From: Escherichia coli | GTDB taxonomy: Bacteria; Pseudomonadota; Gammaproteobacteria; Enterobacterales; Enterobacteriaceae | NCBI RefSeq assembly: GCF_051903065.1 | Contig: NZ_CP178438.1 | DNA: 64,000 nt | Direction: 5' to 3' (one strand) | Part shown: positions 24,737 through 51,822 of the stretch, piece by piece | Position numbering within the stretch: the first letter of the stretch is position 1 | Layout: every line of letters begins with the position of its first letter | The notes under the pieces: generated by a model | The model's database searches: none | What the model saw: only the letters and a program-made list of their open reading frames with translations | Told to the model about the DNA's origin: nothing | Translations under genes and position numbers: made by a program

Positions 24737-24923
24737 AAAATATAATGACCACCATTCGAATCTGTATGCAAACTAAATGTTTGTCAAATGTTAAATTGAG
24801 TTTGCAAAAAAGAAAACTCACTGCTAGATTGAAAAAATATTGAACAGAAAGGTCATTTAAACCGCAGTAATGGCGATAATTTAGTCCACTTTGTGAGATT
24901 GAGCATGGAAAATATAATGAACA
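24737..24923. promoter_or_regulatory. puuA/puuD divergent control region with three copies of an AAAATATAATGA(A/C)C-like motif (24737..24750, 24834..24846, 24909..24923)
   Basis: Motif copies read directly; the third overlaps the first codons of puuD; candidate PuuR operators. Confidence 0.5.
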
Positions 24924-25669: not shown

Positions 25670-25695
25670 CCACTACAGTTTAAGGAAATGCAAAT

Positions 25696-26253: not shown

Positions 26254-26402
26254 TCTTTTTGTTCTGTAAGCCGGGTAAGCGCAATGCGCCCGGCAATCCA
26301 TAAAGAATGTCGCCAGAAATAAACGGGCATACGGCCCGGGGATCTCTGCGCCCTGACGTTCACAAACTGCATATATCTGATAGTCGTGAAACAGGAGTCA
26401 TA

Positions 26403-27890: not shown

Positions 27891-27891
27891 A

Positions 27892-29172: not shown

Positions 29173-29209
29173 TTTCCGATTAACAGTGAAGAGTCAAAAG
29201 GTGTGAAAC

Positions 29210-30475: not shown

Positions 30476-30503
30476 TACGCAGAAGCAGGGGCAACGCAAT
30501 AAT

Positions 30504-30605: not shown

Positions 30606-31583
30606 CTAAATCTGGTGCTTTTTCAACAACGCGCGGAACTGATGATAGGTTAACCCCAGCAATTCAGCTGCGCGCTTCTGGTTATATTTCCCTTGTTGCA
30701 AACTGAGTTGCAGCAACTCTTTTTCCTGCTGCATCTGAAACTCACGTAAATCCAGCGGCAGCATCGGAAGCGAGGTGTTTTCTGAAACGGCGTTGGCTTC
30801 TTCTGGTGGACGCCGTTTAAAGGGATCAAGAATGATGTCATCAAGCGGATAATCGCTGGTGCCGTGGCGATACACTGAACGTTCCACCACGTTTTTCAAT
30901 TCACGAATATTTCCCGGCCAGCGATAATTCAGCAATGTTTCTCTGGCGTGCTCGGTAAAACCTGGGAACAGAGGCAGCTTGATTTCCCGACACATCTGGA
31001 TGGCAAAGTGTTCCGCCATCAACATAATGTCACTTTCGCGCTCGCGCAGTGGTGGCAGTTGCACAACATCAAAAGCCAGGCGGTCGAGCAGGTCAGCGCG
31101 AAAAGTACCTTCATTGACCATCGCCGGGAGATCGGCATTCGTCGCGCATACCAACCGCACATTCACCTGCAACGGCTGGCTGCCGCCAACGCGCTCCAGT
31201 TCACCGTACTCAATCACGCGCAATAATTTTTCCTGCACCATCATCGGTGCTGTAGCGAGTTCATCAAGAAATAGCGTACCGCCGTCGGCACGTTCAAATC
31301 TCCCTGGATGACGTTTTTGCGCACCGGTAAACGCCCCCGCTTCGTGACCAAACAGTTCGGAATCCAGCAGATTTTCATTTAACGCCGCGCAGTTAAGGGA
31401 AATAAACGGCCCTTGCCAACGGGAGGAGAGATAATGCAGGCGGCTGGCAATCAGCTCTTTACCGGTGCCGCGTTCGCCGATGATGAGCACCGGTTTGTCC
31501 AGTGGTGCGAGATGCGAAACCTGTTCCAGCACTTCGAGAAAGCTGTTCGCCTCACCGAGTAAATTATCTTTGTATTCTGCCAT
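30606..31583 (-). CDS. pspF: Sigma-54-dependent activator of the psp operon (AAA+ enhancer-binding protein)
   Basis: ORF 30606..31598; start set at MAEYKDNLLGE...; GAFTGA motif and C-terminal HTH present. Confidence 0.9.
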   Translation of the reverse strand: MAEYKDNLLGEANSFLEVLEQVSHLAPLDKPVLIIGERGTGKELIASRLHYLSSRWQGPFISLNCAALNENLLDSELFGHEAGAFTGAQKRHPGRFERADGGTLFLDELATAPMMVQEKLLRVIEYGELERVGGSQPLQVNVRLVCATNADLPAMVNEGTFRADLLDRLAFDVVQLPPLRERESDIMLMAEHFAIQMCREIKLPLFPGFTEHARETLLNYRWPGNIRELKNVVERSVYRHGTSDYPLDDIILDPFKRRPPEEANAVSENTSLPMLPLDLREFQMQQEKELLQLSLQQGKYNQKRAAELLGLTYHQFRALLKKHQI

Positions 31584-31677
31584 GATGAAATTCGCCACTT
31601 GTTAGTGTAATTCGCTAATTCATCCTGGCATGTTGCTGTTGATTCTTCAATCAGATCTTTATAAATCAAAAAGATAA

Positions 31678-32418
<741 letters not shown>

Positions 32419-32471
32419 TAACATCCAGGCGGCGTCCGAACGCGCCGCCGCTCATCGTCTAAGGAGTACTT

Positions 32472-32696
32472 ATGAGCGCGCTATTTCTGGCTATTCCGTT
32501 AACCATTTTTGTGCTGTTTGTTTTACCGATCTGGTTATGGCTGCATTACAGCAATCGTTCTGGTCGCAGTGAATTGTCGCAAAGTGAGCAGCAGCGATTA
32601 GCGCAACTGGCTGATGAAGCAAAACGGATGCGCGAACGTATTCAGGCGCTGGAATCTATTCTTGATGCAGAACATCCGAACTGGAGGGATCGCTAA
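32472..32696 (+). CDS. pspB: Phage shock protein B
   Basis: 74-aa single-TM ORF. Confidence 0.9.
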   Translation: MSALFLAIPLTIFVLFVLPIWLWLHYSNRSGRSELSQSEQQRLAQLADEAKRMRERIQALESILDAEHPNWRDR

Positions 32697-33055
32697 TGGC
32701 GGGCATTAATCTCAATAAAAAATTATGGCGTATTCCACAGCAGGGCATGGTCCGTGGCGTCTGCGCCGGGATTGCCAACTATTTTGATGTACCGGTAAAA
32801 CTGGTGCGTATCCTGGTGGTGCTGTCGATTTTCTTCGGTCTGGCGCTGTTTACCCTGGTTGCTTACATCATTTTGTCATTTGCGCTTGATCCAATGCCGG
32901 ACAACATGGCCTTTGGTGAGCAGCTACCTTCCAGCAGCGAATTGCTGGATGAAGTCGACCGTGAACTGGCGGCAAGTGAAACGCGTTTACGCGAGATGGA
33001 ACGTTATGTCACTTCCGATACTTTCACGTTACGTAGCCGTTTCCGTCAACTGTGA
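32696..33055 (+). CDS. pspC: Phage shock protein C
   Basis: 119-aa ORF overlapping the pspB stop. Confidence 0.9.
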
Positions 33056-33063
33056 GGAAAGTT

Positions 33064-33285
33064 ATGAATACTCGCTGGCAACAGGCCGGGCAAAAGGTGA
33101 AGCCTGGTTTCAAATTAGCAGGCAAGCTGGTACTTCTTACCGCACTGCGCTATGGCCCGGCGGGTGTGGCGGGCTGGGCGATAAAATCAGTTGCTCGCCG
33201 ACCGCTGAAAATGTTGCTGGCTGTGGCGCTGGAACCGCTGTTAAGTCGGGCTGCTAATAAACTGGCACAGCGTTATAAAAGGTGA
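33064..33285 (+). CDS. pspD: Phage shock protein D
   Basis: ORF 33052..33285; start set at [10 protein letters not shown]... Confidence 0.85.
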
Positions 33286-33359
33286 GGAGAGTTTCGCAAA
33301 AATTGTTAAATCTCAGGCCTATAATGGATGGCAATTTTCATCCATAGAAGGACACTTAC

Positions 33360-33674
33360 ATGTTTAAAAAAGGCTTACTTGCTCTGGCACTGGTGTTTTC
33401 ACTGCCCGTTTTTGCCGCTGAACACTGGATCGATGTTCGTGTTCCAGAGCAGTATCAGCAAGAGCACGTTCAGGGGGCCATCAATATTCCCCTGAAGGAA
33501 GTGAAAGAGCGCATTGCCACCGTCGTTCCGGATAAAAACGACACCGTGAAAGTGTATTGCAATGCCGGACGCCAGTCAGGGCAGGCAAAAGAGATCCTTA
33601 GCGAGATGGGATATACCCACGTTGAGAACGCCGGTGGCCTGAAAGACATCGCAATGCCGAAGGTCAAAGGTTAA
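33360..33674 (+). CDS. pspE: Periplasmic rhodanese (thiosulfate sulfurtransferase)
   Basis: 104-aa ORF with signal peptide and active-site Cys (CNAGRQS). Confidence 0.9.
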   Translation: MFKKGLLALALVFSLPVFAAEHWIDVRVPEQYQQEHVQGAINIPLKEVKERIATVVPDKNDTVKVYCNAGRQSGQAKEILSEMGYTHVENAGGLKDIAMPKVKG

Positions 33675-35564: not shown

Positions 35565-35577
35565 AAAGGAACATCTC

Positions 35578-36870: not shown

Positions 36871-36890
36871 ACCCAGGACAGGAATCCGCA

Positions 36891-37772
36891 ATGAACAGGC
36901 TTTTTTCAGGTCGTTCCGATATGCCCTTTGCGCTGCTGCTTCTCGCGCCCAGCTTATTACTGCTGGGCGGTCTGGTGGCGTGGCCGATGGTGTCGAATAT
37001 CGAAATCAGTTTTTTACGTCTGCCGCTCAATCCCAACATCGAGTCAACGTTTGTTGGGGTGAGTAACTATGTACGCATTCTCTCCGATCCCGGCTTCTGG
37101 CACTCGCTGTGGATGACGGTCTGGTATACGGCGCTGGTGGTGGCGGGCAGCACCGTGCTCGGGCTGGCGGTGGCGATGTTTTTCAACCGCGAGTTCCGCC
37201 TGCGCAAAACCGCGCGTTCGCTGGTGATCCTCTCCTACGTAACGCCGTCTATTTCGCTGGTGTTTGCCTGGAAATACATGTTCAACAACGGCTACGGCAT
37301 TGTGAACTACCTCGGCGTCGATCTTCTGCATCTCTATGAGCAGGCACCGCTGTGGTTCGATAATCCGAGCAGTAGCTTTGTGCTGGTGGTGCTGTTCGCC
37401 ATCTGGCGCTACTTCCCGTATGCCTTTATCTCGTTTCTGGCGATTTTGCAGACCATCGACAAATCGCTGTACGAAGCGGCAGAGATGGATGGCGCTAATG
37501 CCTGGCAACGGTTTCGCATCGTCACGCTGCCCGCAATTATGCCGGTCCTGGCGACGGTGGTGACCCTGCGCACCATCTGGATGTTCTACATGTTCGCTGA
37601 CGTTTATCTGCTGACGACGAAGGTCGATATTCTCGGCGTTTATCTCTACAAAACCGCCTTTGCCTTTAATGACTTAGGGAAAGCGGCGGCGATCTCGGTG
37701 GTGCTCTTCATCATTATTTTCGCTGTCATTCTGCTGACCAGAAAACGGGTGAACCTCAATGGCAACAAATAA
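36891..37772 (+). CDS. ycjO: ABC transporter permease
   Basis: 293-aa polytopic membrane ORF, MalF/G-type. Confidence 0.85.
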   Translation: MNRLFSGRSDMPFALLLLAPSLLLLGGLVAWPMVSNIEISFLRLPLNPNIESTFVGVSNYVRILSDPGFWHSLWMTVWYTALVVAGSTVLGLAVAMFFNREFRLRKTARSLVILSYVTPSISLVFAWKYMFNNGYGIVNYLGVDLLHLYEQAPLWFDNPSSSFVLVVLFAIWRYFPYAFISFLAILQTIDKSLYEAAEMDGANAWQRFRIVTLPAIMPVLATVVTLRTIWMFYMFADVYLLTTKVDILGVYLYKTAFAFNDLGKAAAISVVLFIIIFAVILLTRKRVNLNGNK

Positions 37773-38601
37773 ACGCACACTCAGTCGCATCGGTTTTTAC
37801 TGCGGGCTGGCGCTGTTTCTCATCATCACGCTGTTTCCGTTTTTTGTGATGCTGATGACCTCGTTCAAGAGCGCAAAAGAGGCGATCTCGCTGCATCCTA
37901 CGCTGCTGCCACAGCAGTGGACGCTGGAGCATTACGTCGACATTTTTAACCCGATGATTTTCCCGTTTGTCGACTACTTCCGTAACAGCATGGTGGTGTC
38001 GGTGGTTTCATCCGTGGTGGTGGTATTTCTCGGTATTCTCGGGGCTTACGCGCTTTCTCGCCTGCGCTTTAAAGGTCGGATGACCATCAACGCCAGCTTT
38101 TACACGGTGTACATGTTCTCCGGCATTTTGCTGGTGGTGCCGCTGTTCAAAATTATCACCGCACTTGGCATTTACGACACCGAGATGGCGCTGATCATTA
38201 CCATGGTGACGCAAACTCTGCCCACCGCCGTGTTTATGCTGAAAAGTTACTTCGACACCATCCCTGATGAGATCGAAGAAGCGGCGATGATGGATGGCCT
38301 CAACCGTCTGCAAATCATCTTCCGTATCACCGTGCCCCTGGCGATGTCCGGGCTGATATCGGTGTTCGTCTACTGCTTTATGGTGGCGTGGAACGACTAT
38401 CTGTTTGCGTCGATTTTCCTCTCCAGCGCCAGCAATTTCACCTTACCGGTGGGCCTGAACGCGCTGTTCAGTACGCCTGATTACATCTGGGGACGGATGA
38501 TGGCGGCCTCGCTGGTGACCGCATTGCCGGTGGTGATTATGTATGCGCTTTCGGAACGTTTTATTAAGAGTGGTTTGACCGCCGGTGGCGTGAAGGGCTA
38601 A
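37759..38601 (+). CDS. ycjP: ABC transporter permease
   Basis: 280-aa polytopic membrane ORF. Confidence 0.85.
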   Translation: MATNKRTLSRIGFYCGLALFLIITLFPFFVMLMTSFKSAKEAISLHPTLLPQQWTLEHYVDIFNPMIFPFVDYFRNSMVVSVVSSVVVVFLGILGAYALSRLRFKGRMTINASFYTVYMFSGILLVVPLFKIITALGIYDTEMALIITMVTQTLPTAVFMLKSYFDTIPDEIEEAAMMDGLNRLQIIFRITVPLAMSGLISVFVYCFMVAWNDYLFASIFLSSASNFTLPVGLNALFSTPDYIWGRMMAASLVTALPVVIMYALSERFIKSGLTAGGVKG

Positions 38602-38631
38602 AGCGGCCAGTTTCTTTACAAGGAGTTTTAC

Positions 38632-39684
38632 ATGAAAAAGTTAGTAGCCACAGCACCGCGCGTTGCTGCGCTGGTTGAGTATGAAGATCGGGCGATTTTA
38701 GCCAATGAAGTGAAGATCCGCGTGCGTTTCGGCGCACCGAAACACGGAACGGAAGTGGTCGACTTCCGCGCCGCCAGCCCGTTTATCGATGAAGACTTTA
38801 ACGGCGAGTGGCAGATGTTCACCCCGCGTCCGGCAGATGCGCCGCGCGGCATTGAGTTTGGCAAATTCCAGCTTGGCAACATGGTGGTTGGCGACATTAT
38901 CGAGTGCGGCAGCGACGTTACCGACTACGCGGTGGGCGACAGCGTATGCGGCTACGGCCCGCTCTCCGAGACGGTCATCATTAACGCAGTGAATAACTAC
39001 AAGCTGCGCAAAATGCCGCAAGGCAGCTCCTGGAAAAACGCCGTCTGTTACGACCCGGCGCAGTTTGCCATGAGCGGCGTGCGCGATGCCAACGTACGCG
39101 TAGGGGATTTTGTCGTGGTGGTAGGGCTTGGCGCGATCGGTCAAATTGCCATCCAACTGGCGAAACGCGCTGGCGCATCGGTGGTAATTGGCGTCGATCC
39201 TATCGCCCATCGCTGTGATATTGCCCGTCGCCACGGTGCTGATTTCTGCCTTAACCCCATTGGCACTGACGTAGGCAAAGAGATCAAAACGCTGACCGGC
39301 AAGCAGGGTGCCGATGTGATTATCGAAACCAGCGGTTACGCCGACGCGCTGCAATCGGCGCTGCGCGGTCTGGCCTACGGCGGCACCATCTCTTATGTCG
39401 CGTTTGCCAAACCATTTGCTGAAGGTTTTAACCTCGGACGCGAAGCGCATTTCAATAACGCCAAAATTGTTTTCTCCCGCGCGTGCAGCGAACCGAACCC
39501 GGATTATCCGCGCTGGAGCCGTAAGCGTATTGAAGAAACCTGCTGGGAACTGCTGATGAACGGTTATCTCAATTGCGAAGATTTAATCGACCCGGTAGTG
39601 ACCTTTGCCAACAGCCCGGAAAGCTACATGCAGTATGTCGATCAGCATCCGGAACAGAGCATCAAAATGGGCGTTACGTTTTAA
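38632..39684 (+). CDS. ycjQ: Zn-dependent alcohol/sugar dehydrogenase (MDR family)
   Basis: 350-aa ORF with GLGAIG Rossmann motif. Confidence 0.85.
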   Translation: MKKLVATAPRVAALVEYEDRAILANEVKIRVRFGAPKHGTEVVDFRAASPFIDEDFNGEWQMFTPRPADAPRGIEFGKFQLGNMVVGDIIECGSDVTDYAVGDSVCGYGPLSETVIINAVNNYKLRKMPQGSSWKNAVCYDPAQFAMSGVRDANVRVGDFVVVVGLGAIGQIAIQLAKRAGASVVIGVDPIAHRCDIARRHGADFCLNPIGTDVGKEIKTLTGKQGADVIIETSGYADALQSALRGLAYGGTISYVAFAKPFAEGFNLGREAHFNNAKIVFSRACSEPNPDYPRWSRKRIEETCWELLMNGYLNCEDLIDPVVTFANSPESYMQYVDQHPEQSIKMGVTF

Positions 39685-39701
39685 TTCAAAGGAATGAAAA
39701 A

Positions 39702-40490
39702 ATGAAAATAGGCACACAGAATCAGGCATTCTTTCCGGAAAATATCCGCGAGAAATTTCGTTATATCAAAGAGATGGGCTTCGATGGTTTTGAGATTGAC
39801 GGCAAACTGCTGGTCAACAACATCGAAGAAGTCAAAGCGGCGATCAAAGAAACCGGTTTACCAGTGACCACCGCCTGCGGCGGCTATGACGGCTGGATTG
39901 GTGACTTTATCGAAGAGCGTCGTCTTAATGGCTTAAAGCAGATCGAACGCATTCTCGAAGCGCTGGCAGAAGTGGGGGGTAAAGGTATCGTCGTTCCGGC
40001 AGCGTGGGGCATGTTTACCTTCCGCTTACCGCCGATGACCTCGCCGCGTAGCCTGGACGGCGACCGCAAAATGGTGAGTGATTCCCTGCGCGTACTGGAA
40101 CAGGTCGCCGCGCGTACCGGAACCGTGGTGTATCTCGAACCGTTAAACCGCTATCAGGATCATATGATCAACACCCTCGCCGATGCTCGTCGTTACATCG
40201 TCGAAAACAATCTTAAACATGTGCAGATTATCGGCGATTTCTATCACATGAACATCGAAGAAGATAACCTCGCGCAGGCGCTGCACGACAACCGTGACTT
40301 GCTCGGTCATGTGCATATTGCCGATAACCATCGTTACCAGCCGGGCAGCGGCACCCTCGATTTCCACGCGCTGTTTGAACAGCTGCGCGCCGATAACTAT
40401 CAGGGTTATGTGGTGTATGAAGGGCGTATCCGGGCAGAAGATCCTGCCCAGGCGTACCGTGATTCGTTGGCCTGGTTGCGTACCTGCTAA
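39702..40490 (+). CDS. ycjR: Sugar-phosphate isomerase/epimerase (TIM-barrel xylose-isomerase-like)
   Basis: ORF 39573..40490 overlaps ycjQ; start set at MKIGTQNQAFF... Confidence 0.8.
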   Translation: MKIGTQNQAFFPENIREKFRYIKEMGFDGFEIDGKLLVNNIEEVKAAIKETGLPVTTACGGYDGWIGDFIEERRLNGLKQIERILEALAEVGGKGIVVPAAWGMFTFRLPPMTSPRSLDGDRKMVSDSLRVLEQVAARTGTVVYLEPLNRYQDHMINTLADARRYIVENNLKHVQIIGDFYHMNIEEDNLAQALHDNRDLLGHVHIADNHRYQPGSGTLDFHALFEQLRADNYQGYVVYEGRIRAEDPAQAYRDSLAWLRTC

Positions 40491-40499
40491 GAGGTCTTT

Positions 40500-41555
40500 G
40501 TGAAAAGTGCAATGACAAGCTCTCCGCTGCGTGTCGCGATAATAGGCGCAGGCCAGGTGGCGGATAAGGTTCATGCTTCGTACTACTGCACCCGCAACGA
40601 TCTGGAACTGGTGGCTGTCTGTGACAGCCGCCTTTCCCAGGCGCAGGCGCTGGCAGAAAAATACGGGAATGCATCCGTGTGGGACGATCCGCAGGCCATG
40701 CTGCTGGCGGTGAAACCTGATGTGGTTAGCGTCTGCTCACCTAACCGTTTTCATTACGAACATACCCTGATGGCGCTTGAAGCGGGCTGCCATGTGATGT
40801 GCGAAAAACCGCCCGCCATGACGCCAGAACAGGCGCGGGAAATGTGCGATACCGCGCGCAAACAGGGCAAGGTGCTGGCCTACGACTTTCACCATCGTTT
40901 TGCGCTCGATACGCAACAGCTGCGTGAACAGGTGACCAACGGCGTTTTGGGAGAGATTTACGTTACCACCGCCCGCGCCCTGCGTCGCTGCGGCGTTCCC
41001 GGCTGGGGTGTCTTTACCAATAAAGAACTGCAAGGTGGTGGCCCACTGATCGACATCGGCATTCATATGCTGGATGCTGCGATGTATGTGCTGGGCTTTC
41101 CGGCGGTGAAAAGCGTGAATGCGCATAGTTTTCAAAAGATCGGCACGCAAAAGAGCTGTGGTCAATTTGGCGAGTGGGATCCGGCAACTTACAGCGTCGA
41201 AGATTCGCTGTTTGGCACCATTGAATTTCATAACGGCGGCATTCTGTGGCTGGAAACGTCATTTGCACTCAACATCCGCGAACAGTCGATTATGAACGTC
41301 AGCTTTTGTGGTGATAAAGCCGGTGCGACGCTGTTTCCAGCACATATCTACACCGATAACAACGGTGAATTAATGACGCTGATGCAACGGGAAATGGCAG
41401 ACGACAACCGCCATTTGCGCAGCATGGAAGCCTTTATCAATCACGTACAGGGCAAGCCCGTGATGATAGCCGACGCCGAGCAGGGGTACATCATCCAGCA
41501 ACTGGTGGCGGCGTTATATCAATCCGCAGAAACAGGGACGCGTGTGGAATTATGA
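40500..41555 (+). CDS. ycjS: Gfo/Idh/MocA-family NAD-dependent oxidoreductase
   Basis: 351-aa ORF, GTG start; N-terminal Rossmann fold (RVAIIGAGQVA). Confidence 0.8.
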   Translation: MKSAMTSSPLRVAIIGAGQVADKVHASYYCTRNDLELVAVCDSRLSQAQALAEKYGNASVWDDPQAMLLAVKPDVVSVCSPNRFHYEHTLMALEAGCHVMCEKPPAMTPEQAREMCDTARKQGKVLAYDFHHRFALDTQQLREQVTNGVLGEIYVTTARALRRCGVPGWGVFTNKELQGGGPLIDIGIHMLDAAMYVLGFPAVKSVNAHSFQKIGTQKSCGQFGEWDPATYSVEDSLFGTIEFHNGGILWLETSFALNIREQSIMNVSFCGDKAGATLFPAHIYTDNNGELMTLMQREMADDNRHLRSMEAFINHVQGKPVMIADAEQGYIIQQLVAALYQSAETGTRVEL

Positions 41556-43819
41556 CCAGGCCAGTAACGTTATCAGAACCCCATTTCAGCCAGCATACCC
41601 TGAACAAGTATGCATCGCTGATGGCGCAGGGGAACGGCTATCTTGGGCTTCGCGCCAGCCATGAAGAAGATTACACGCGCCAGACGCGAGGGATGTATCT
41701 GGCGGGGCTGTATCATCGGGCGGGAAAAGGTGAAATCAACGAACTGGTGAACCTGCCTGATATCTTGGGGATGGAGATTGCCATAAATGGTGAGGTTTTC
41801 TCGTTATCCCACGAAGCCTGGCAGCGTGAGCTTGACTTTGCCAGTGGCGAATTACGCCGCAACGTTGTCTGGCGTACCAGCAACGGCGCAGGTTACACCA
41901 TCGCCAGCCGTCGCTTTGTTTCGGCAGACCAACTGCCGCTCATTGCGCTGGAAATCACTATTACGCCACTGGACGCCGACGCGTCAGTGCTGATTTCAAC
42001 AGGTATCGACGCCACGCAAACCAACCACGGTCGCCAACATCTCGACGAAACCCAGGTGCGGGTGTTTGGTCAGCATCTGATGCAGGGGATCTACACCACC
42101 CAGGATGGACGCAGTGATGTGGCCATCAGCTGTTGCTGTAAGGTGAGCGGTGATGTGCAGCAATGCTATACCGCCAAAGAGCGCCGTTTGCTGCAACATA
42201 CCAGTGCGCAGCTTCATGCAGGCGAGACAGTGACGTTGCAAAAACTGGTGTGGATCGACTGGCGGGATGACAGGCAAGCCGTTTTAGACGAGTGGGGCAG
42301 CGCGTCGCTTCGCCAGCTTGAAATGTGCGCGCAGCAGAGTTACGACCAACTTCTTGCAGCATCAACAGAAAACTGGCGTCAATGGTGGCAGAAACGTCGT
42401 ATCACGGTAAATGGCGGCGATGCGCACGATCAGCAAGCGTTAGATTATGCGCTTTATCATCTGCGCATCATGACGCCGGCTCACGACGAGCGCAGCAGTA
42501 TTGCGGCAAAAGGCTTAACCGGCGAAGGCTACAAAGGCCACGTTTTCTGGGATACAGAAGTATTTTTGCTACCGTTTCATCTGTTTAGCGATCCGACGGT
42601 TGCCCGAAGTTTACTGCGTTATCGCTGGCACAACTTGCCTGGCGCGCAGGAGAAAGCGCGACGCAATGGCTGGCAGGGCGCGCTATTTCCGTGGGAAAGC
42701 GCGCGCAGCGGCGAAGAAGAGACGCCAGAATTTGCCGCCATTAACATTCGTACCGGGCTGCGGCAAAAAGTGGCCTCGGCGCAGGCGGAACATCATCTGG
42801 TGGCCGATATCGCCTGGGCGGTTATTCAATACTGGCAGACCACGGGGGATGAAAGTTTCATTGCTCATGAAGGCATGGCGCTACTTCTGGAAACTGCAAA
42901 GTTCTGGATTAGCCGCGCGGTGAGGGTTAACGACCGTCTGGAAATTCATGATGTTATTGGGCCAGACGAATATACCGAACATGTCAATAATAACGCCTTC
43001 ACCAGCTATATGGCGTATTACAACGTCCAGCAGGCGCTGAACATCGCCCGCCGGTTCGGCTGTAGCGACGTTGCGTTTATCCATCGCGCCGAAATGTTCC
43101 TCAAAGAGTTGTGGCTGTCAGAAATTCAGCCCGACGGCGTTTTGCCGCAGGATGATTCGTTTATGGCTAAGCCGGCGATTAATCTGGCGAAATACAAAGC
43201 GGCGGCGGGGAAGCAAACCATTCTGCTGGATTATTCACGCGCAGAAGTGAACGAGATGCAGATCCTCAAACAAGCTGATGTGGTGATGCTCAATTACATG
43301 CTGCCGGAGCAGTTCTCAGCGGCATCGTGTCTTGCCAATCTGCAATTTTATGAACCGCGCACTATTCACGACTCGTCATTAAGTAAAGCAATCCACGGCA
43401 TTGTTGCCGCACGCTGTGGCCTGCTGACCCAAAGTTATCAGTTCTGGCGCGAAGGGACTGAAATCGATCTTGGTGCTGATCCGCATAGTTGTGATGATGG
43501 TATCCATGCTGCCGCAACTGGCGCTATCTGGCTGGGGGCGATTCAGGGTTTTGCCGGGGTGAGCGTGCGTGACGGTGAATTGCATCTAAATCCGGCGTTA
43601 CCTGAGCAGTGGCAACAGTTGTCTTTCCCTCTGTTCTGGCAGGGCTGCGAATTACAGGTCACGCTCGACGCGCAGCGTATTGCGATTCGAACTTCTGCGC
43701 CCGTTTCACTGCGTTTGAACGGGCAGCTTATATCCGTGGCTGAAGAATCTGTTTTCTGTTTGGGTGATTTTATTTTGCCCTTCAATGGGACCGCTACCAC
43801 GCATCAGGAGGATGAATGA
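41552..43819 (+). CDS. ycjT: GH65-family glycoside phosphorylase (kojibiose phosphorylase-like)
   Basis: 755-aa ORF. Confidence 0.85.
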
Positions 43820-44475
43820 AACTGCAAGGGGTAATTTTCGATCTGGATGGTGTAATCACCGACACCGCGCATCTGCATTTCCAGGCGTGGCAGCAGATTG
43901 CCGCTGAAATTGGCATCAGCATTGATGCGCAGTTTAACGAATCCCTAAAAGGGATTAGCCGCGATGAGTCTCTGCGGCGCATTCTGCAATACGGGGGCAA
44001 AGAGGGCGACTTTAACTCGCAGGAGCGGGCGCAACTGGCGTATCGCAAAAATCTGCTCTACGTCCACTCACTGCGCGAACTGACGGTTAATGCCGTTCTG
44101 CCGGGGATCCGGCCTTTGCTGGCAGATCTCCGCGCACAGCAGATCCCGGTAGGGCTGGCTTCCGTCTCCCTGAATGCGCCGACGATTTTAGCGGCGCTGG
44201 AGCTGCGCGAGTTTTTCACCTTCTGCGCGGATGCTTCCCAACTTAAAAACTCGAAACCGGATCCGGAAATCTTTCTCGCTGCCTGTGCTGGGCTGGGCGT
44301 GCCGCCGCAGGCATGTATCGGCATTGAAGATGCGCAGGCGGGCATTGACGCCATTAACGCCAGCGGTATGCGCTCGGTGGGGATCGGCGCGGGCTTAACC
44401 GGGGCGCAATTACTGTTGCCTTCAACGGACTCCCTGACCTGGTCGCGGTTATCGGCCTTCTGGCAAAACGTATAG
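43816..44475 (+). CDS. ycjU: Beta-phosphoglucomutase (HAD family)
   Basis: 219-aa ORF with HAD motif DLDGVITDT. Confidence 0.9.
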
Positions 44476-44488
44476 CAAAGGAATCAAC

Positions 44489-45571
44489 ATGGCTCAGCTT
44501 TCGTTACAACATATTCAAAAAATCTACGATAACCAGGTGCATGTGGTGAAGGACTTCAACCTGGAAATTGCCGATAAAGAGTTCATCGTATTTGTCGGCC
44601 CGTCGGGCTGCGGTAAATCGACCACCCTGCGCATGATTGCCGGGCTTGAGGAGATCAGCGGCGGCGATCTGTTGATCGACGGCAAACGAATGAATGACGT
44701 TCCAGCCAAAGCACGCAATATCGCGATGGTGTTCCAGAACTACGCGTTGTATCCGCATATGACGGTTTACGACAACATGGCGTTTGGCCTGAAGATGCAA
44801 AAAATCGCCAAAGAGGTGATTGATGAGCGGGTGAACTGGGCGGCGCAAATTCTCGGCCTGCGTGAGTACCTGAAACGCAAGCCGGGCGCGCTTTCCGGCG
44901 GGCAACGTCAGCGAGTGGCGCTCGGGCGGGCGATTGTACGCGAAGCGGGCGTGTTTTTAATGGATGAACCGCTCTCTAACCTTGATGCCAAGCTGCGCGT
45001 GCAAATGCGCGCAGAGATCAGCAAGCTGCATCAGAAACTGAACACCACCATGATCTACGTGACCCACGATCAGACCGAAGCGATGACCATGGCGACGCGG
45101 ATTGTGATTATGAAAGACGGGATTGTTCAGCAAGTGGGTGCGCCGAAAACCGTTTATAACCAACCCGCGAATATGTTTGTTGCCGGATTTATTGGATCAC
45201 CAGCGATGAATTTTATTCGCGGCACGATCGATGGCGATAAATTCGTTACGGAAACGCTTAAATTAACCATTCCCGAAGAGAAATTAGCGGTTCTGAAAAC
45301 ACAGGAAAGTTTGCATAAGCCCATCGTGATGGGAATGCGCCCGGAAGATATTCATCCGGACGCGCAAGAGGAAAATAATATTTCCGCCAAAATTAGCGTG
45401 GCAGAATTAACCGGTGCGGAATTTATGCTCTACACCACGGTTGGGGGGCACGAGTTAGTGGTCCGTGCTGGTGCGTTAAATGATTATCATGCAGGAGAAA
45501 ATATCACTATTCATTTTGATATGACTAAATGTCATTTCTTTGATGCAGAAACGGAAATAGCAATTCGCTAA
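44489..45571 (+). CDS. ycjV: ABC transporter ATP-binding protein (MalK-like), apparently intact
   Basis: 360-aa ORF with Walker A (GPSGCGKST), signature LSGGQRQR and C-terminal regulatory domain. Confidence 0.85.
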   Translation: MAQLSLQHIQKIYDNQVHVVKDFNLEIADKEFIVFVGPSGCGKSTTLRMIAGLEEISGGDLLIDGKRMNDVPAKARNIAMVFQNYALYPHMTVYDNMAFGLKMQKIAKEVIDERVNWAAQILGLREYLKRKPGALSGGQRQRVALGRAIVREAGVFLMDEPLSNLDAKLRVQMRAEISKLHQKLNTTMIYVTHDQTEAMTMATRIVIMKDGIVQQVGAPKTVYNQPANMFVAGFIGSPAMNFIRGTIDGDKFVTETLKLTIPEEKLAVLKTQESLHKPIVMGMRPEDIHPDAQEENNISAKISVAELTGAEFMLYTTVGGHELVVRAGALNDYHAGENITIHFDMTKCHFFDAETEIAIR

Positions 45572-45615
45572 ATACAGGGGGAAGGCATTCCCCCAGGATA
45601 ATACAAGGAACAATA

Positions 45616-46521
45616 ATGAAAAAGTTATTACCCTGTACCGCACTGGTGATGTGTGCGGGAATGGCCTGCGCACAGGCCGAGGAAAAGAACGACTGGCACT
45701 TTAATATCGGCGCGATGTACGAAATAGAAAACGTCGAGGGTTATGGCGAAGATATGGATGGGCTGGCGGAGCCTTCTGTCTATTTTAATGCCGCCAACGG
45801 GCCGTGGAGAATTTCTCTGGCCTATTATCAGGAAGGGCCGGTAGATTATAGCGCGGGTAAACGTGGAACGTGGTTTGATCGCCCGGAGCTGGAGGTGCAT
45901 TATCAGTTCCTCGAAAGCGATGATTTCAGTTTCGGTCTGACCGGCGGTTTCCGTAATTATGGTTATCACTACGTTGATGAACCGGGTAAAGACACGGCGA
46001 ATATGCAGCGCTGGAAAATCGCGCCAGACTGGGATGTGAAACTGACTGACGATCTACGTTTCAACGGTTGGTTGTCGATGTATAAATTTGCCAACGATTT
46101 GAACACGACCGGTTACGCTGATACCCGTGTCGAAACGGAAACAGGTCTGCAATATACCTTCAACGAAACGGTTGCTTTGCGAGTGAACTATTATCTCGAG
46201 CGCGGCTTCAATATGGACGACAGCCGCAATAACGGTGAGTTTTCCACGCAAGAAATTCGCGCCTATTTGCCGCTGACGCTCGGCAACCACTCGGTGACGC
46301 CGTATACGCGCATTGGGCTGGATCGCTGGAGTAACTGGGACTGGCAGGATGATATTGAACGTGAAGGCCATGATTTTAACCGTGTTGGTTTATTTTACGG
46401 TTATGATTTCCAGAATGGTCTTTCCATTTCGCTGGAATACGCGTTTGAGTGGCAGGATCACGACGAAGGCGACAGCGATAAATTCCATTATGCAGGTGTC
46501 GGCGTAAATTACTCGTTCTGA
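45616..46521 (+). CDS. ompG: Outer membrane porin G
   Basis: 301-aa ORF with signal peptide and C-terminal aromatic residue (..NYSF). Confidence 0.9.
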   Translation: MKKLLPCTALVMCAGMACAQAEEKNDWHFNIGAMYEIENVEGYGEDMDGLAEPSVYFNAANGPWRISLAYYQEGPVDYSAGKRGTWFDRPELEVHYQFLESDDFSFGLTGGFRNYGYHYVDEPGKDTANMQRWKIAPDWDVKLTDDLRFNGWLSMYKFANDLNTTGYADTRVETETGLQYTFNETVALRVNYYLERGFNMDDSRNNGEFSTQEIRAYLPLTLGNHSVTPYTRIGLDRWSNWDWQDDIEREGHDFNRVGLFYGYDFQNGLSISLEYAFEWQDHDEGDSDKFHYAGVGVNYSF

Positions 46522-46534
46522 TAATGGGCTAAAT

Positions 46535-46594
46535 TGCCGGATGCGGCGCGAGTACTTTATCCGATCTATAAATGTAGGCCGGATAAGATGCGCC
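46535..46594. repeat. REP elements; the second is split by IS150 and continues at 48027..48051
   Basis: gccggatgcggcgcgag...ttatccg, then taggccggataagatgcgcc | IS150 | gccagcatcgcatccggca. Confidence 0.65.
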
Positions 46595-47124
46595 TGAACT
46601 GCACCCCAAATGTTGGACATAATCTGACATCTGAAGGTGCAGTTTATGAAACATTCATTTGAAGTAAAACTTGCCGCTGTAAATCATTACCTGGCCGGTC
46701 ATGCAGGCATCATTTCTACGGCAAAACTCTTTCAACTTTCTCACACCAGCCTCTCACACTGGATTAATCTTTTTCTTCTTCACGGTCCTCAGGCACTGGA
46801 TTGCAGACACAAGCGTAGCTATTCTCCTGAAGATAAACTTTGCGTGGTTCTTTATGCTCTCGGGCATTCTGAGTCTCTACCCCGGGTAGCTGCCCGGTTT
46901 AACATTCCCAGCCACAACATGGTTAAAAACTGGATAAAAGGCTACCGCAAATCTGGTAATGAGGCCTTTATCAGGCGCAGGAAGGAGAAAAGCATGACCC
47001 GTTCTGATGATACCCATGAAAACGAGGCAAACATGACGCCGGAAGAGATGAAGAATGAGCTGCGTTATCTTCGCGCAGAAAATGCATATCTGAAAGCCAT
47101 GCAGGAGCATCTCCTGGAAAAAAA

Positions 47125-48020
<896 letters not shown>

Positions 48021-48066
48021 TGTTCAGCCAGCATCGCATCCGGCATTCAGGCAAGGTCGCTGGTAT

Positions 48067-49065
48067 TTATTTCAGCGTCATATGCGTGGCAACGGTAATA
48101 TTTTGTGGTGACGGTTTTCCGGCAATTAAGCGGAATAATAACTCACAGCTTTGTTGACCTAACTCCTGCGTCGGAACATCGATGCCGCCCGGTGCAGGCG
48201 TTAAAATAAATGACAGCGTTTCATTGCTATAACCCACCACCGCTAACTGCTGCGGAATAGCAATGTTTTTCTCTGCCGCCGCACGATAAATGCTCATTAA
48301 TTTCAGGCTGTCAGTGGCAAACACTGCCTCAGGCAACGGTGACTGACTTAATAATTGCCGTGCTGCTTGCAGTGCTGTTTCATGGGTATAACCGCCATCA
48401 ACAATCCATTCATCACGCACTGCAATATTATGATCTTCCAGACTCTGCTTATAACCATTTACCCGATCCACTGAAACATGGACATCAAGCGGTGCATGCA
48501 GACAGGCAATATTTTGATGTCCACTTTCAATTAACGCATCGGTCAACGCAATGCTGTCACCAAAATTATCGGTATCGACAGAATAAACATGGGCATATTG
48601 ACCTTCAACTTTGCCAATCACCACCACAGGAATATCGTATTTATCAAGTTGCGCAAAAAATGACTCATCCGCTGGCGAACTTAGCATAATAATGCCTTTA
48701 ATCATTTTCTGCTTAATTTTGCTTTCACATTTTTGTAAGTCTTCTGCCGGGTTGTGCGACGTCTGCAATATCACGTCGAAACCTTCTTCTTCCGCTTTGG
48801 CGGTGATGGCATGTAGAACCTCTGAGAAAAACGGATTACCCGCCGTAGTTTTGGTTGAACGGGTAGAAATCACCATAATGGCATCAAAACCCGAAGAGGT
48901 CAGCGCGCGGGCCAGCTTGTTTGGCTGATACTGTAATTCTTCAATGGCCCGTAACACTTTTTCGCGCGCTTCCGGGGAGATATTAGTTTGCTTATTCAGC
49001 ACGCGTGATACGGTGGATTTTGATACGCCTGCAACCCTGGCAATATCATAAATAGTAGGGGACAT
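48067..49065 (-). CDS. ycjW: LacI-family transcriptional regulator
   Basis: 332-aa ORF with N-terminal HTH ([21 protein letters not shown]). Confidence 0.9.
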
Positions 49066-49219
49066 AGGTCAGGAACTCCGTCCGAACGTGAATGCTGCAC
49101 ATCTTATGGAGTTCGCCCGTCGATGACAACACGGGCAGTTGATAATCAATGGCCTGGCCCCCACATTCATATCCTTACGAACGATTTTTTTCTGGTCTTC
49201 AGAGCAGCACAGGACAGCA

Positions 49220-50617
49220 ATGAAGCGACTTAAAAATGAACTTAATGCGCTGGTGAATCGGGGTGTCGACAGACATCTGCGCCTCGCCGTAACCGGACTT
49301 AGCCGCAGCGGCAAAACGGCGTTTATCACTGCGATGGTCAATCAGTTGCTCAATATTCACGCCGGAGCACGCTTGCCGCTGTTAAGCGCGGTGCGTGAAG
49401 AACGGCTGCTGGGCGTAAAACGCATTCCCCAGCGTGACTTTGGCATTCCGCGCTTCACCTATGATGAAGGGCTGGCGCAGTTATATGGCGATCCACCTGC
49501 CTGGCCAACGCCAACGCGCGGCGTCAGCGAAATTCGCCTGGCGCTACGTTTTAAATCGAACGATTCGCTGCTACGCCACTTTAAGGATACCTCCACGCTG
49601 TATCTGGAGATTGTGGATTATCCCGGCGAATGGTTGCTCGACCTGCCGATGCTGGCGCAGGACTATTTAAGCTGGTCGCGCCAGATGACGGGCTTACTTA
49701 ATGGTCAGCGCGGCGAATGGTCGGCGAAATGGCGAATGATGTGCGAAGGGCTGGACCCGCTAGCGCCTGCCGACGAAAACCGGCTGGCAGACATTGCCGC
49801 CGCGTGGACCGATTATCTCCACCACTGTAAACAGCAGGGGCTGCACTTTATTCAGCCAGGGCGCTTTGTCTTGCCGGGAGATATGGCAGGTGCGCCCGCG
49901 CTGCAATTCTTCCCGTGGCCGGATGTCGATGCCTGGGGCGAGTCCAAACTCGCGCAGGTCGATAAGCACACCAATGCCGGAATGCTGCGCGAGCGGTTTA
50001 ATTATTACTGCGAGAAAGTGGTGAAGGGGTTCTATAAGAATCATTTTCTGCGCTTTGACCGCCAGATTGTGCTGGTGGATTGCCTGCAACCTCTCAACAG
50101 TGGGCCACAGGCATTTAATGATATGCGTCTGGCGCTGACGCAGCTGATGCAAAGTTTCCACTACGGGCAGCGTACCCTGTTCAGGCGTTTGTTTTCGCCG
50201 GTTATCGATAAGCTATTGTTTGCTGCCACTAAAGCGGACCATGTGACCATTGATCAGCACGCCAATATGGTTTCATTGCTGCAACAACTAATTCAGGATG
50301 CCTGGCAAAATGCGGCGTTCGAAGGGATCAGCATGGATTGCCTGGGGTTGGCGTCAGTTCAGGCGACCACCAGTGGCATTATTGATGTTAACGGTGAGAA
50401 AATCCCGGCGCTGCGCGGTAATCGACTTAGCGATGGCGCACCGCTCACTGTTTATCCTGGCGAAGTTCCCGCACGTTTGCCTGGTCAGGCGTTCTGGGAT
50501 AAGCAAGGCTTCCAGTTTGAGGCATTTCGTCCGCAGGTGATGGATGTCGACAAACCCCTACCGCATATTCGTCTTGATGCTGCGCTGGAATTTTTAATAG
50601 GAGATAAATTGCGATGA
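49220..50617 (+). CDS. ycjX: P-loop NTPase of unknown function (DUF463)
   Basis: ORF 49139..50617; start set at [11 protein letters not shown]...; Walker A GLSRSGKT. Confidence 0.85.
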
Positions 50618-51675
50618 CCGAACCGTTAAAACCACGTATTGATTTCGACGGTCCGCTGGAGGTCGATCAGAATCCAAAATTCAGGGCGCAGCAGACCTTT
50701 GACGAAACTCAGGCGCAAAATTTTGCCCCGGCCACGCTCGACGAAGCGCAGGAAGAAGAGGGGCAAGTCGAAGCGGTAATGGACGCAGCGTTACGTCCGA
50801 AACGCAGCCTGTGGCGCAAAATGGTGATGGGCGGGCTGGCTCTGTTTGGCGCAAGCGTTGTCGGGCAGGGTATACAGTGGACAATGAATGCCTGGCAAAC
50901 TCAGGACTGGGTGGCGCTGGGTGGATGTGCCGCTGGGGCATTGATTATCGGCGCTGGCGTAGGTTCTGTGGTAACAGAGTGGCGGCGCTTATGGCGCTTG
51001 CGACAGCGCGCCCATGAACGCGACGAAGCGCGTGATTTATTGCATAGCCACGGAACCGGCAAAGGCCGCGCATTTTGCGAAAAACTGGCGCAGCAGGCGG
51101 GCATCGATCAGTCACATCCGGCGCTGCAACGCTGGTATGCCTCAATCCATGAAACGCAAAACGACCGTGAAGTGGTCAGTTTGTATGCGCATTTGGTCCA
51201 GCCAGTTTTAGATGCCCAGGCGCGGCGCGAAATCAGCCGCTCAGCAGCGGAATCAACGTTGATGATTGCGGTCAGTCCGCTGGCGCTGGTGGATATGGCA
51301 TTTATCGCCTGGCGCAATCTGCGTTTGATTAATCGCATCGCCACGCTGTATGGCATTGAACTGGGATATTACAGCCGTTTGCGCCTGTTCAAGCTGGTAT
51401 TGCTGAATATCGCTTTCGCCGGAGCCAGCGAATTGGTGCGCGAAGTGGGGATGGACTGGATGTCGCAAGATCTCGCTGCTCGTTTGTCTACCCGCGCAGC
51501 TCAGGGGATTGGTGCTGGGCTTCTGACGGCACGACTCGGGATTAAAGCTATGGAGCTTTGCCGCCCACTGCCGTGGATTGACGATGACAAACCTCGCCTC
51601 GGGGATTTCCGTCGTCAGCTTATCGGTCAGGTGAAAGAAACGCTGCAAAAAGGCAAAACGCCCAGCGAAAAATAA
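50614..51675 (+). CDS. ycjF: Inner-membrane protein of unknown function (DUF697)
   Basis: 353-aa ORF; ATGA overlap with the ycjX stop. Confidence 0.85.
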
Positions 51676-51734
51676 TGCAATATCGGGTGCTGACCGGATA
51701 TCTTTACGCCGAAGTGCCCGTTTTTCCGTCTTTG

Positions 51735-51752
51735 TGTCAATGATTGTTGACA
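51735..51752. promoter_or_regulatory. TyrR box-like palindrome TGTCAA-N6-TTGACA upstream of tyrR
   Basis: Perfect palindrome about 70 bp upstream of the tyrR start; fits TGTAAA-N6-TTTACA TyrR-box architecture. Confidence 0.6.
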
Positions 51753-51822
51753 GAAACCTTCCTGCTATCCAAATAGTGTCATATCATCATATTAATTGTT
51801 CTTTTTTCAGGTGAAGGTTCCC

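What the first reader, a model, noticed from the sequence alone, without database searches (positions are those of the whole stretch)
49220..51675. Conserved ycjX-ycjF pair of unknown function (P-loop NTPase plus membrane protein), translationally coupled
ATGA stop/start overlap at 50614..50617 links a DUF463 P-loop NTPase to a DUF697 membrane protein. The pair is widely conserved but its biochemical role is still unclear, so it remains a reasonable target in an otherwise well-annotated region.
Basis: partly seen in the sequence, partly recalled or inferred. Interest (0 to 1): 0.25.

Follow-up and report, generated by a model that had tools for sequence, protein, structure and literature searches.

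The report
Stress-induced GTPase and membrane partner pair
This is the ordinary, already annotated E. coli ycjX-ycjF gene pair, a heat-shock-induced Ras-like GTP-binding protein and its inner-membrane partner made from overlapping genes; its physiological job is still unknown, and it appears to be a detached remnant of the phage-shock (Psp) membrane-stress locus.

Summary
ycjX (49220-50617, 465 aa, DUF463) and ycjF (50614-51675, 353 aa, DUF697/TIGR01620) overlap by ATGA at 50614-50617, with a GGAG ribosome-binding site inside the last ycjX codons.

The window is E. coli chromosome. 5413 of 5426 complete genomes carry the pair, and RefSeq annotates it.

A Shewanella orthologue has a crystal structure (6NZ4-6, "Ras-like GTP-binding protein"). 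The pair is reported as sigma-32 regulated and induced early by heat. No paper I found explains its physiological role, so "function unclear" stands.

New here:
- The 4-nt overlap occurs in 83 of 89 loci, down to about 30% YcjF identity.
- DUF463 precedes DUF697 in all 88 loci long enough to show the upstream gene.
- The widespread layout is sapA-pspF|pspABC(D)-ycjXF-tyrR. In this window a 15.5-kb ycjM-ycjW sugar island splits psp from ycjXF; 373 E. coli genomes lack that split.
- A sigma-32-like promoter is conserved about 80 nt upstream of ycjX, except where ycjX abuts pspD.
- YcjX's nearest folds after 6NZ4 are Rag/Arf/Sar1/SR-beta/G-alpha switches, not dynamins.

Best reading: a membrane-docked GTPase switch for envelope and heat stress. 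Already known; low interest.

The parts
49138..49166 (+). Putative sigma-32 (heat-shock) promoter of ycjX: GTTGATA, 14 nt, CCCCACAT
   Evidence: Best match to CTTGAAA-N12-15-CCCCATNT in the ycjW-ycjX gap has 3 mismatches. Such matches occur 28 times in the 128 kb of both strands of the window, so about 0.03 are expected in this 154-nt gap. A match with 3 or fewer mismatches sits at -74 to -82 from the ATG in 46 of 83 related loci. A sigma-32 promoter for ycjX is reported in the literature (PMC3041696, citing Nonaka 2006). The position was not tested experimentally here.
49167..49219 (+). ycjX 5' untranslated region with AGGA ribosome-binding site (49210-49213) and a UACG motif (49176-49179)
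   Evidence: Sequence. The K-12 equivalent of A49177 (NC_000913.3:1384073) is a low-level (3-15%) TadA A-to-I editing site named 'ycjX-5p' (supplement of PMC13170351), which shows that this stretch is transcribed. No Rfam family matches and no stable fold is predicted (z=+1.6).
49220..50617 (+). ycjX, 465-aa Ras-like GTP-binding protein (DUF463): G1 GLSRSGKT 26-33, G3 DYPGE 133-137, G4 TKAD 337-340
50600..50617 (+). Coupling junction: Shine-Dalgarno GGAG (50600-50603) inside the conserved YcjX C-terminal G-D-K-L codons, then the ATGA stop/start overlap (50614-50617)
   Evidence: The junction reads [GGAG/GGGG]A[T/C]AA[A/G]...ATGA in Enterobacterales and in the distant loci L082, L088 and L091. 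The overlap is 4 nt in 83 of 89 loci. By the called gene L084 also has a 4-nt overlap, and L092 a 1-nt overlap.
50614..51675 (+). ycjF, 353-aa inner-membrane protein (TIGR01620; DUF697 at residues 183-341)
   Evidence: Family-averaged hydropathy shows three hydrophobic segments at about 64-96, 93-126 and 210-236, and a marginal one at 258-276. The AF2 model has pLDDT 85.9 and pTM 0.75 and is all helical. Residues D200, D227, R234, Y246, G298 and R317 are invariant in 99 diverse homologues.
51676..51822 (+). ycjF-tyrR spacer: no terminator-like site, and a TyrR-box-like palindrome TGTCAATGATTGTTGACA (51735-51752)
   Evidence: No terminator-like site was found between ycjF and tyrR. The palindrome is unique in the window, with 0.01 expected by chance. 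This is consistent with the reported ycjX-ycjF-tyrR transcription unit plus tyrR's own promoter (PMC3041696). Reading the palindrome as a TyrR box rests on my own knowledge.
30606..33674 (.). pspF (minus strand) and pspABCDE (plus strand), the neighbour of ycjXF in the widespread layout, here 15.5 kb upstream
   Evidence: Annotation of the 99.99% identical strain. The sigma-54 promoter-like site TGGCACGCAAATTGTA lies at 31683-31698. In many relatives pspABC(D/E) is followed directly by ycjXF.

Best explanation
ycjX-ycjF is a two-gene stress module. YcjX is a soluble Ras-like GTPase switch. YcjF is its integral inner-membrane partner. The 4-nt overlap lets ribosomes finishing ycjX restart on ycjF, so the two proteins are made together in a fixed ratio. 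I infer that YcjX docks on the cytoplasmic face of YcjF, and that its GTP/GDP state controls something YcjF does in or at the membrane, in the way Sar1, Arf, SR-beta and Rag GTPases work through membrane-bound partners. In the most widespread layout the module is an appendix of the Psp membrane-stress operon. In this E. coli it has been separated from psp by a sugar-utilisation island and runs from its own heat-shock (sigma-32) promoter, continuing into tyrR. Shown here or in the literature: the gene structure, the families, the GTPase fold, the membrane segments, the conservation of pairing, overlap and synteny, and stress induction. Inferred: the physical complex, the switch logic, and a role in membrane maintenance.
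Against: No experiment shows that YcjX binds YcjF. The fused-chain AF2 model was inconclusive: pTM 0.61, and the YcjF N-terminal tail became less ordered, not more. In Yersinia, where ycjXF lies in the psp operon, robust phenotypes in non-polar deletion studies were associated only with PspF, A, B and C (PMC3467454). Popp 2022 found DUF463 in 14% of genomes that lack Psp (PMC9239133). In E. coli the pair has no sigma-54 site upstream, and Huvet 2010 argues that psp and ycjXF are expressed under different conditions. The sigma-32 motif here has 3 mismatches. The YcjF topology (three transmembrane segments versus a hairpin plus a re-entrant segment) is unresolved.
Confidence: 0.6

Rival explanations
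1. Split dynamin-like membrane-remodelling machine. YcjX supplies the GTPase and YcjF supplies the helical stalk and membrane 'paddle'. Together they would carry out GTP-driven membrane fusion, fission or repair alongside PspA, which is ESCRT-III-like.
Confidence: 0.12
2. GTPase-gated channel or transporter, a split analogue of FeoB. YcjF would form a conduit whose conserved membrane-embedded charges carry an ion or small solute, and YcjX would gate it during stress.
Against: Only two or three clear transmembrane segments are present, which is few for a pore unless YcjF oligomerises. No transporter family matches by sequence. The screen hit did not survive the second round.
Confidence: 0.12
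3. Heat-shock translation or ribosome-associated GTPase, like HflX or SRP/FtsY. YcjX would act on ribosomes or nascent membrane proteins, and YcjF would merely localise it.
Against: The matches to translation factors cover only the shared G domain. YcjX has none of their RNA- or ribosome-binding domains (a single Pfam family). The strict pairing with a membrane protein and with psp points to the membrane. I found no ribosome data in the searchable literature.
Confidence: 0.08
4. Component of a biological-conflict (anti-phage) GTPase system. Ravi 2024 places the psp-linked GTPase in the 'DO-GTPase' family of Kaur 2020.
For: PMC11237479 calls the psp-linked protein a DO-GTPase, citing the YcjX structure paper. 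The G3 motif DYPGE carries the Walker-B glutamate that Kaur 2020 gives as a family hallmark (PMC7159879). One distant pair lies next to a ZorA-like gene (L092). The pair is induced by phiX174 infection (PMC8125068).
Against: No PADLOC model matches either protein. The pair is core genome (5413 of 5426 E. coli genomes) with stable synteny across orders. By annotation and Pfam listing, no second paralogous GTPase gene and no variable effector gene lies next to it; GAP1 itself could not be searched for. Ravi 2024 itself predicts 'membrane-related stresses' for this subgroup.
Confidence: 0.04

Closest known systems
YcjX of Shewanella oneidensis (PDB 6NZ4/6NZ5/6NZ6; Tsai et al. 2019, J Mol Biol 431:3179)
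   Different: A different species, and I could not read the paper, so its biochemical details are not used here. The structure is of YcjX alone, and nothing solved includes YcjF.
Yersinia enterocolitica pspABCD-ycjXF operon
   Same: The same two genes in the same order, attached to the Psp locus (PMC3467454, PMC9239133). This layout occurs in many Enterobacterales and in distant relatives.
   Different: In this window ycjXF lies 15.5 kb from pspE, behind ycjW, with its own sigma-32-like promoter and no sigma-54 site.
Membrane-recruited small GTPase switches (Sar1-Sec12, SR-beta-SR-alpha, Arf, Rag-Ragulator)
   Different: Sequence identity is only 10-19%. YcjX is 465 aa with large insertions, and YcjF has no detectable similarity to Sec12, SR-alpha or Ragulator. 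This is an analogy of mechanism, not family membership.
Bacterial dynamin-like proteins (BDLP, LeoA, IniA)
   Different: The YcjX G domain is not dynamin-like, the two parts are separate proteins, and the resemblance is within the noise for helical bundles.

Membership tests
YcjX family (Pfam PF04317, DUF463) | Full-length match to the family HMM above the gathering score | tested here: met
   604.4 bits against a cut-off of 25; residues 20-464 cover profile positions 1-443 of 443.
YcjX family (Pfam PF04317, DUF463) | GTPase motifs G1 GxxxxGK[ST], G3 DxxG and G4 [NT]KxD | tested here: met
   GLSRSGKT 26-33, DYPGE 133-137 and TKAD 337-340. The motifs are conserved in distant pairs (sequences) and in 6NZ5.
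YcjX family (Pfam PF04317, DUF463) | Fold of the solved YcjX structure | tested here: met
   [not shown]
YcjX family (Pfam PF04317, DUF463) | GTP binding and hydrolysis by this protein | not testable with these tools
   This needs biochemistry. It is known only for the Shewanella orthologue, from a paper not held in the library.
YcjF family (TIGR01620; Pfam PF05128, DUF697) | HMM matches above the curated cut-offs | tested here: met
   TIGR01620 scores 431.9 bits against a cut-off of 160; PF05128 scores 188.1 against 27.7.
YcjF family (TIGR01620; Pfam PF05128, DUF697) | Integral membrane protein | tested here: met
   Hydrophobic segments at 69-88, 98-123 and 210-236 in this protein and in the average of 99 homologues. 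The exact topology is unresolved.
Translationally coupled gene pair | Stop/start overlap with a ribosome-binding site inside the upstream gene | tested here: met
   ATGA at 50614-50617 and GGAG at 50600-50603; conserved in 83 of 89 loci.
Translationally coupled gene pair | Translation of ycjF depends on translation of ycjX | not testable with these tools
   This needs a premature-stop or reporter experiment.
Sigma-32 (RpoH) regulon | Promoter matching CTTGAAA-N13-14-CCCCATNT upstream of the gene | tested here: met
   GTTGATA-14-CCCCACAT at 49138-49166, 3 mismatches; conserved in position in 46 of 83 loci. This is a moderate match, not proof.
Sigma-32 (RpoH) regulon | RpoH-dependent heat induction | not testable with these tools
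   Reported in the literature (PMC3041696 citing Nonaka 2006; PMC7572479 lists the pair as early heat-responsive).
Psp (phage shock protein) system | Encoded in, or co-transcribed with, the pspA operon from the sigma-54/PspF promoter | tested here: not met
   In this window ycjX starts 15.5 kb after pspE and behind the divergent ycjW. The only good sigma-54-like site near psp is at 31683-31698, and there is none between 47131 and 52384. The feature is met in many relatives.
Psp (phage shock protein) system | A Psp-related phenotype on deletion | not testable with these tools
   The literature associates robust phenotypes only with PspF, A, B and C in Yersinia (PMC3467454).
Dynamin-like proteins | Dynamin-type large G domain | tested here: not met
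   [not shown]
Dynamin-like proteins | Helical stalk with a membrane paddle | tested here: inconclusive
   [not shown]
DO-GTPase conflict systems (Kaur et al. 2020) | GAP1 partner gene, often two paralogous GTPase genes, and variable effector genes | tested here: inconclusive
   By annotation and Pfam listings the neighbours are ycjW, tyrR or psp genes, with no second GTPase gene and no variable effectors, and there is no PADLOC hit. GAP1 has no model in the available libraries, so its absence could not be tested by profile.

The most novel reading that the evidence does not exclude
YcjX-YcjF is a GTP-driven accessory arm of the Psp membrane-repair system. An Arf/Sar1/SR-beta-like switch (YcjX) would be recruited by a membrane receptor (YcjF) that has a transmembrane hairpin and a proline-kinked re-entrant wedge. 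Together they would sense or reshape damaged inner membrane alongside PspA (ESCRT-III-like). Some Enterobacteriaceae, including this E. coli, appear to have moved the module from sigma-54/PspF control to sigma-32 control. This would be a bacterial counterpart of small-GTPase-controlled membrane remodelling.
Probability: 0.15. Interest if true: 0.6.

Novelty: already known. Interest (0 to 1): 0.22.

Why it matters
ycjXF is one of the few strongly heat-induced, widely conserved proteobacterial gene pairs that still lacks a physiological role, and it travels with the Psp envelope-stress system, which matters for virulence in several pathogens. As a genome-scan finding it is ordinary: the genes, their families, a crystal structure and their stress regulation are already on record. 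This analysis adds sharper hypotheses for an experimentalist: an obligate and deeply conserved translational coupling, an origin as a psp appendix, a change of promoter between lineages, an Arf/Sar/SR-beta-like rather than dynamin-like G domain, and a short list of invariant YcjF residues (D200, D227, R234, Y246, G298, R317) to mutate.

Tried and rejected
1. The search for homologous proteins with YcjF returned only Enterobacteriaceae, which was useless for diversity. The 50%-cluster search was used instead.
With 14 sequences it ran, but the 80 loci kept were all Enterobacterales. Distant contexts came from the look-up of encoding contigs. L089 was too short to show the upstream gene.
3. A fused YcjX-linker-YcjF AF2 run was meant to reveal an interface. 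It gave pTM 0.61, the YcjF N-terminal tail pLDDT fell from about 65 to 33-53, no PAE or coordinates were available, and there were only 12 well-aligned paired rows. The result is inconclusive and is not used as evidence of binding.
4. The AFDB Foldseek search, intended to find GTPase-DUF697 fusions, was unavailable. My recollection that Pfam describes DUF697 as 'sometimes associated with GTPase domains' therefore remains untested. No GTPase-sized extension was seen among the top 150 YcjF clusters; the one long protein (P0194, 510 aa) has a low-complexity N-terminus.
5. The split-dynamin idea arose and was weakened.
6. The defence-system idea found no support: there is no PADLOC hit.
7. A structured RNA in the 5' UTR or the intergenic spacers was ruled out as far as Rfam and folding can tell.
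8. The Tsai 2019 and Nonaka 2006 papers could not be opened. Their content is cited only through other papers or marked as my own knowledge.

Full report
WHAT IS THERE

The window is E. coli chromosome. The 2.9 kb around the finding is present in 5413 of 5426 complete E. coli genomes and is 100% identical in three of them. The whole window is 99.99% identical to strain 23CRST027. RefSeq annotates ycjW (minus strand), then ycjX ('YcjX family GTP-binding protein'), ycjF ('YcjF family protein'), tyrR and tpx.

From the raw sequence, ycjX runs from ATG 49220 to TGA 50615-50617 (465 aa) and ycjF from ATG 50614 to TAA 51673-51675 (353 aa). The junction reads ...GGA GAT AAA TTG CGA TGA cc. ATGA at 50614-50617 is therefore a true 4-nt stop/start overlap, and GGAG at 50600-50603 is a well-placed Shine-Dalgarno sequence 10 nt before the ATG.

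Pfam assigns DUF463 (E=1.8e-181) to YcjX and DUF697 (E=1.2e-55) to YcjF, and NCBIfam assigns TIGR01620 to YcjF.

IS THE OVERLAP MORE THAN CHANCE?

A 4-nt overlap by itself is commonplace. The same window has one at ycjS/ycjT, ycjT/pgmB and sapB/sapA. Its conservation is what matters.

I collected 80 genome loci with a YcjF relative and 11 contigs encoding distant YcjF representatives, 91 related loci in all. Of the 89 in which both genes could be scored, 83 have the ATGA overlap. These include L082, L088 and L091, where YcjF is only 30-38% identical to the E. coli protein.

Going by the gene calls for those contigs, L084 also has a 4-nt overlap and L092 a 1-nt overlap. The other exceptions are a 7-nt overlap (L087), gaps of 32 and 39 nt (L086, L090) and one truncated ycjX (L047).

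The ribosome-binding site is written into the codons of a conserved YcjX C-terminal motif (G-D-K-L, GGAGAUAAA...). The protein motif and the translation signal therefore constrain each other. Coupling is thus strongly suggested, but it is not demonstrated.

WHAT THE PROTEINS ARE

YcjX has G1 GLSRSGKT (26-33), G3 DYPGE (133-137) and G4 TKAD (337-340) and no hydrophobic segment. It matches the solved 'YcjX stress protein' of Shewanella (6NZ4/5/6) with E about 1e-123 over nearly its full length. [quoted passage not shown] 2019). I saw the citation, but the paper is not in the library.

YcjF is an all-helical membrane protein. Its AF2 model, built on 99 diverse homologues, has pLDDT 85.9 and pTM 0.75. 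Hydropathy, both for this protein and averaged over the family, shows three features:
- a hairpin of two transmembrane helices (about 69-88 and 98-123);
- a very hydrophobic segment at 210-236;
- a marginal segment at 258-276.

Positive charges flank the hairpin on both sides, and the C-terminal tail carries a net +4.8 charge. This argues that the N-terminal tail, the region 124-209 and the C-terminus are all cytoplasmic. The model breaks segment 210-236 at the nearly invariant S221-P222, so it could be a re-entrant wedge rather than a third span. This is unresolved.

CONTEXT AND EVOLUTION

In every locus long enough to show the upstream gene (88 of 88), a DUF463 gene sits immediately upstream of the DUF697 gene.

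The recurrent layout in the distant contigs is sapA...|pspF|pspA-pspB-pspC-ycjX-ycjF-(phhA)-tyrR-like (L082, L084, L086, L088, L091). Within Enterobacterales there are two layouts:
- a contiguous pspABCD(E)-ycjXF-tyrR, seen in Klebsiella, Kosakonia, Kluyvera, Serratia, Pectobacterium, E. albertii and one E. coli (L003);
- ycjW(minus strand)-ycjXF-tyrR.

In this window pspF|pspABCDE lies at 30606-33674, and the ycjM...ompG/ycjW sugar-utilisation cluster (with a strain-specific IS1397) fills the 15.5 kb up to ycjX. A probe across a pspE-ycjX junction is covered at 80% or more in 373 of 5426 E. coli genomes, so both layouts coexist within the species.

The simplest reading is that ycjXF began as the tail of the psp locus and was separated from it by insertion of the sugar island. 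This agrees with, and extends, Huvet 2010 (32 of 81 psp operons carry ycjX; PMC3041696) and Popp 2022 (PMC9239133).

REGULATION

The best sigma-32-like site in the ycjW-ycjX gap is GTTGATA-14 nt-CCCCACAT at 49138-49166. It has 3 mismatches, and about 0.03 such matches are expected by chance in this gap.

A site with 3 or fewer mismatches occurs at -74 to -82 from the ATG in 46 of 83 loci. It is found in ycjW-adjacent loci and in many psp-adjacent ones. It is absent (6 mismatches) where ycjX follows pspD by only about 50 nt, as in Kluyvera, Kosakonia and Serratia, and also in Pectobacterium (5 mismatches), where ycjX follows pspC. In those genomes the pair is probably read through from the psp promoter.

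In this window the only good sigma-54-like site near psp is the pspA promoter (31683-31698), and there is none ahead of ycjX. No terminator-like site separates ycjF from tyrR, which fits the reported ycjX-ycjF-tyrR unit (PMC3041696). A unique TyrR-box-like palindrome lies at 51735-51752.

The literature reports:
- early heat induction (PMC7572479);
- induction at RNA and protein level during phiX174 lysis (PMC8125068);
- ycjF up-regulation under several stresses (PMC9501238);
- membership of the PgrR peptidoglycan-recycling regulon (PMC5934670).

In Yersinia, robust phenotypes in non-polar deletion studies were associated only with PspF, A, B and C (PMC3467454).

HOW IT MOST LIKELY WORKS

I commit to a membrane-docked GTPase switch (confidence 0.6 for the general model). 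YcjX and YcjF are made together in a fixed ratio. YcjX binds the cytoplasmic face of YcjF. The nucleotide state of YcjX controls an activity of YcjF in or at the inner membrane that helps cells cope with heat and envelope damage, originally as an accessory of PspABC.

The structural neighbours of YcjX (Sar1, Arf, SR-beta, Rag, G-alpha) all signal through membrane-bound partners, which is why I prefer this to the alternatives. The complex itself and its output are inferences. My attempt to predict the interface with a fused chain was inconclusive: pTM was 0.61, there was no gain of order in YcjF, and only 12 usable paired sequences were available.

RIVALS
- A split dynamin-like remodeller (0.12). 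It is supported only by weak YcjF-to-stalk matches and is contradicted by the non-dynamin G domain.
- A FeoB-like GTPase-gated conduit (0.12). It is suggested by the conserved charges in hydrophobic helices.
- A ribosome- or translocon-associated heat-shock GTPase (0.08).
- A conflict or defence system of the DO-GTPase type (0.04). Ravi 2024 uses that family name, but the pair is core genome with fixed neighbours and has no PADLOC hit.

COMPARISON WITH THE KNOWN, AND NOVELTY

The pair is a full member of the YcjX/DUF463 and YcjF/TIGR01620 families, and every sequence-level criterion is met. In this genome it is not part of the psp operon, although it is in many relatives. It works most like a small-GTPase and membrane-receptor pair, but it is not a member of any of those families.

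The finding is already known. The genes are annotated, one has a solved orthologue, and their stress regulation and psp linkage are published. The modest additions here are:
- the depth of conservation of the coupling;
- the ribosome-binding site embedded in the GDKL codons;
- the sugar-island insertion that split psp from ycjXF, and its polymorphism within E. coli;
- the lineage-dependent presence of the sigma-32 promoter;
- the Arf/Sar/SR-beta-like character of the G domain;
- a list of residues to mutate.

VERDICT

The feature is real and ordinary. Interest is 0.22. The most novel reading not excluded is a GTP-driven arm of the Psp membrane-repair system, with a probability of about 0.15.

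Noticed in passing
window 33885-49065 (ycjM...ompG, IS1397, ycjW), between pspE (33360-33674) and ycjX (49220): The psp operon and ycjXF, which are contiguous in many relatives, are split here by a 15.5-kb sugar-utilisation island. 373 of 5426 complete E. coli genomes have pspE directly next to ycjX, as do E. albertii (L005) and E. coli SCPM-O-B-8794 (L003). The layout is therefore polymorphic within the species.
   Followed up: partly
window ~46533-47994: An IS3-family IS1397 copy is inserted between ompG and ycjW. This exact ompG/IS junction is found in only 3 of 5426 complete E. coli genomes.
   Followed up: yes
window 49176-49179 (UACG; A49177), ycjX 5' UTR: The K-12 equivalent (NC_000913.3:1384073) is listed as a low-level (3-15%) TadA A-to-I RNA-editing site named 'ycjX-5p' in the supplement of PMC13170351. 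The window differs from K-12 by one base just downstream (C at 49183 where K-12 has U). No stable hairpin is predicted around the site. With the inferred sigma-32 promoter the site would lie only about 4-5 nt from the transcription start, which is odd for a stem-loop substrate.
   Followed up: partly
window 21200-30500 (ymjA, puuP, puuA, puuDRCBE), between sapA (19252-20895) and pspF (30606-31583): In distant relatives a sapA-like gene abuts pspF directly (L082, L084, L086, L088, L091). The putrescine-utilisation cluster therefore looks like a second insertion into a widely conserved sap-psp-ycjXF-tyrR block.
   Followed up: partly
window 51735-51752: A perfect palindrome TGTCAA-N6-TTGACA lies in the ycjF-tyrR spacer. 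It is unique in the window, with 0.01 expected by chance. It looks like the TyrR autoregulatory box; that reading rests on my own knowledge. A tyrR-like gene follows ycjF even in relatives with 30% identity.
   Followed up: partly
Loci L030, L034, L038, L042, L051, L053 (Kluyvera), L052, L059, L060, L063, L066, L068 (Kosakonia), L077 (Serratia), L078 (Pectobacterium); about 140 nt upstream of ycjX: Where ycjX follows pspD by about 50 nt (and in Pectobacterium L078, where it follows pspC), the sigma-32-like promoter seen elsewhere is missing, with 5-6 mismatches. This suggests that control of the pair switches between sigma-32 and the psp (sigma-54) promoter in different lineages.
   Followed up: partly
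window 35578-36870 and 9950-13014: In the RefSeq annotation of the 99.99% identical strain, ycjN carries an internal stop (pseudogene) and an RND efflux permease gene is truncated at its N-terminus by an IS1A copy. A second, frameshifted IS1A lies at 1291-1987.
   Followed up: no
L092 328-7287; L047 6599-8001: In one distant contig the DUF463-DUF697 pair follows a ZorA-like gene and an unannotated 477-aa gene. In Phytobacter massiliensis (L047) ycjX appears truncated by a premature stop while ycjF is intact.
   Followed up: no
[not shown]
   Followed up: partly
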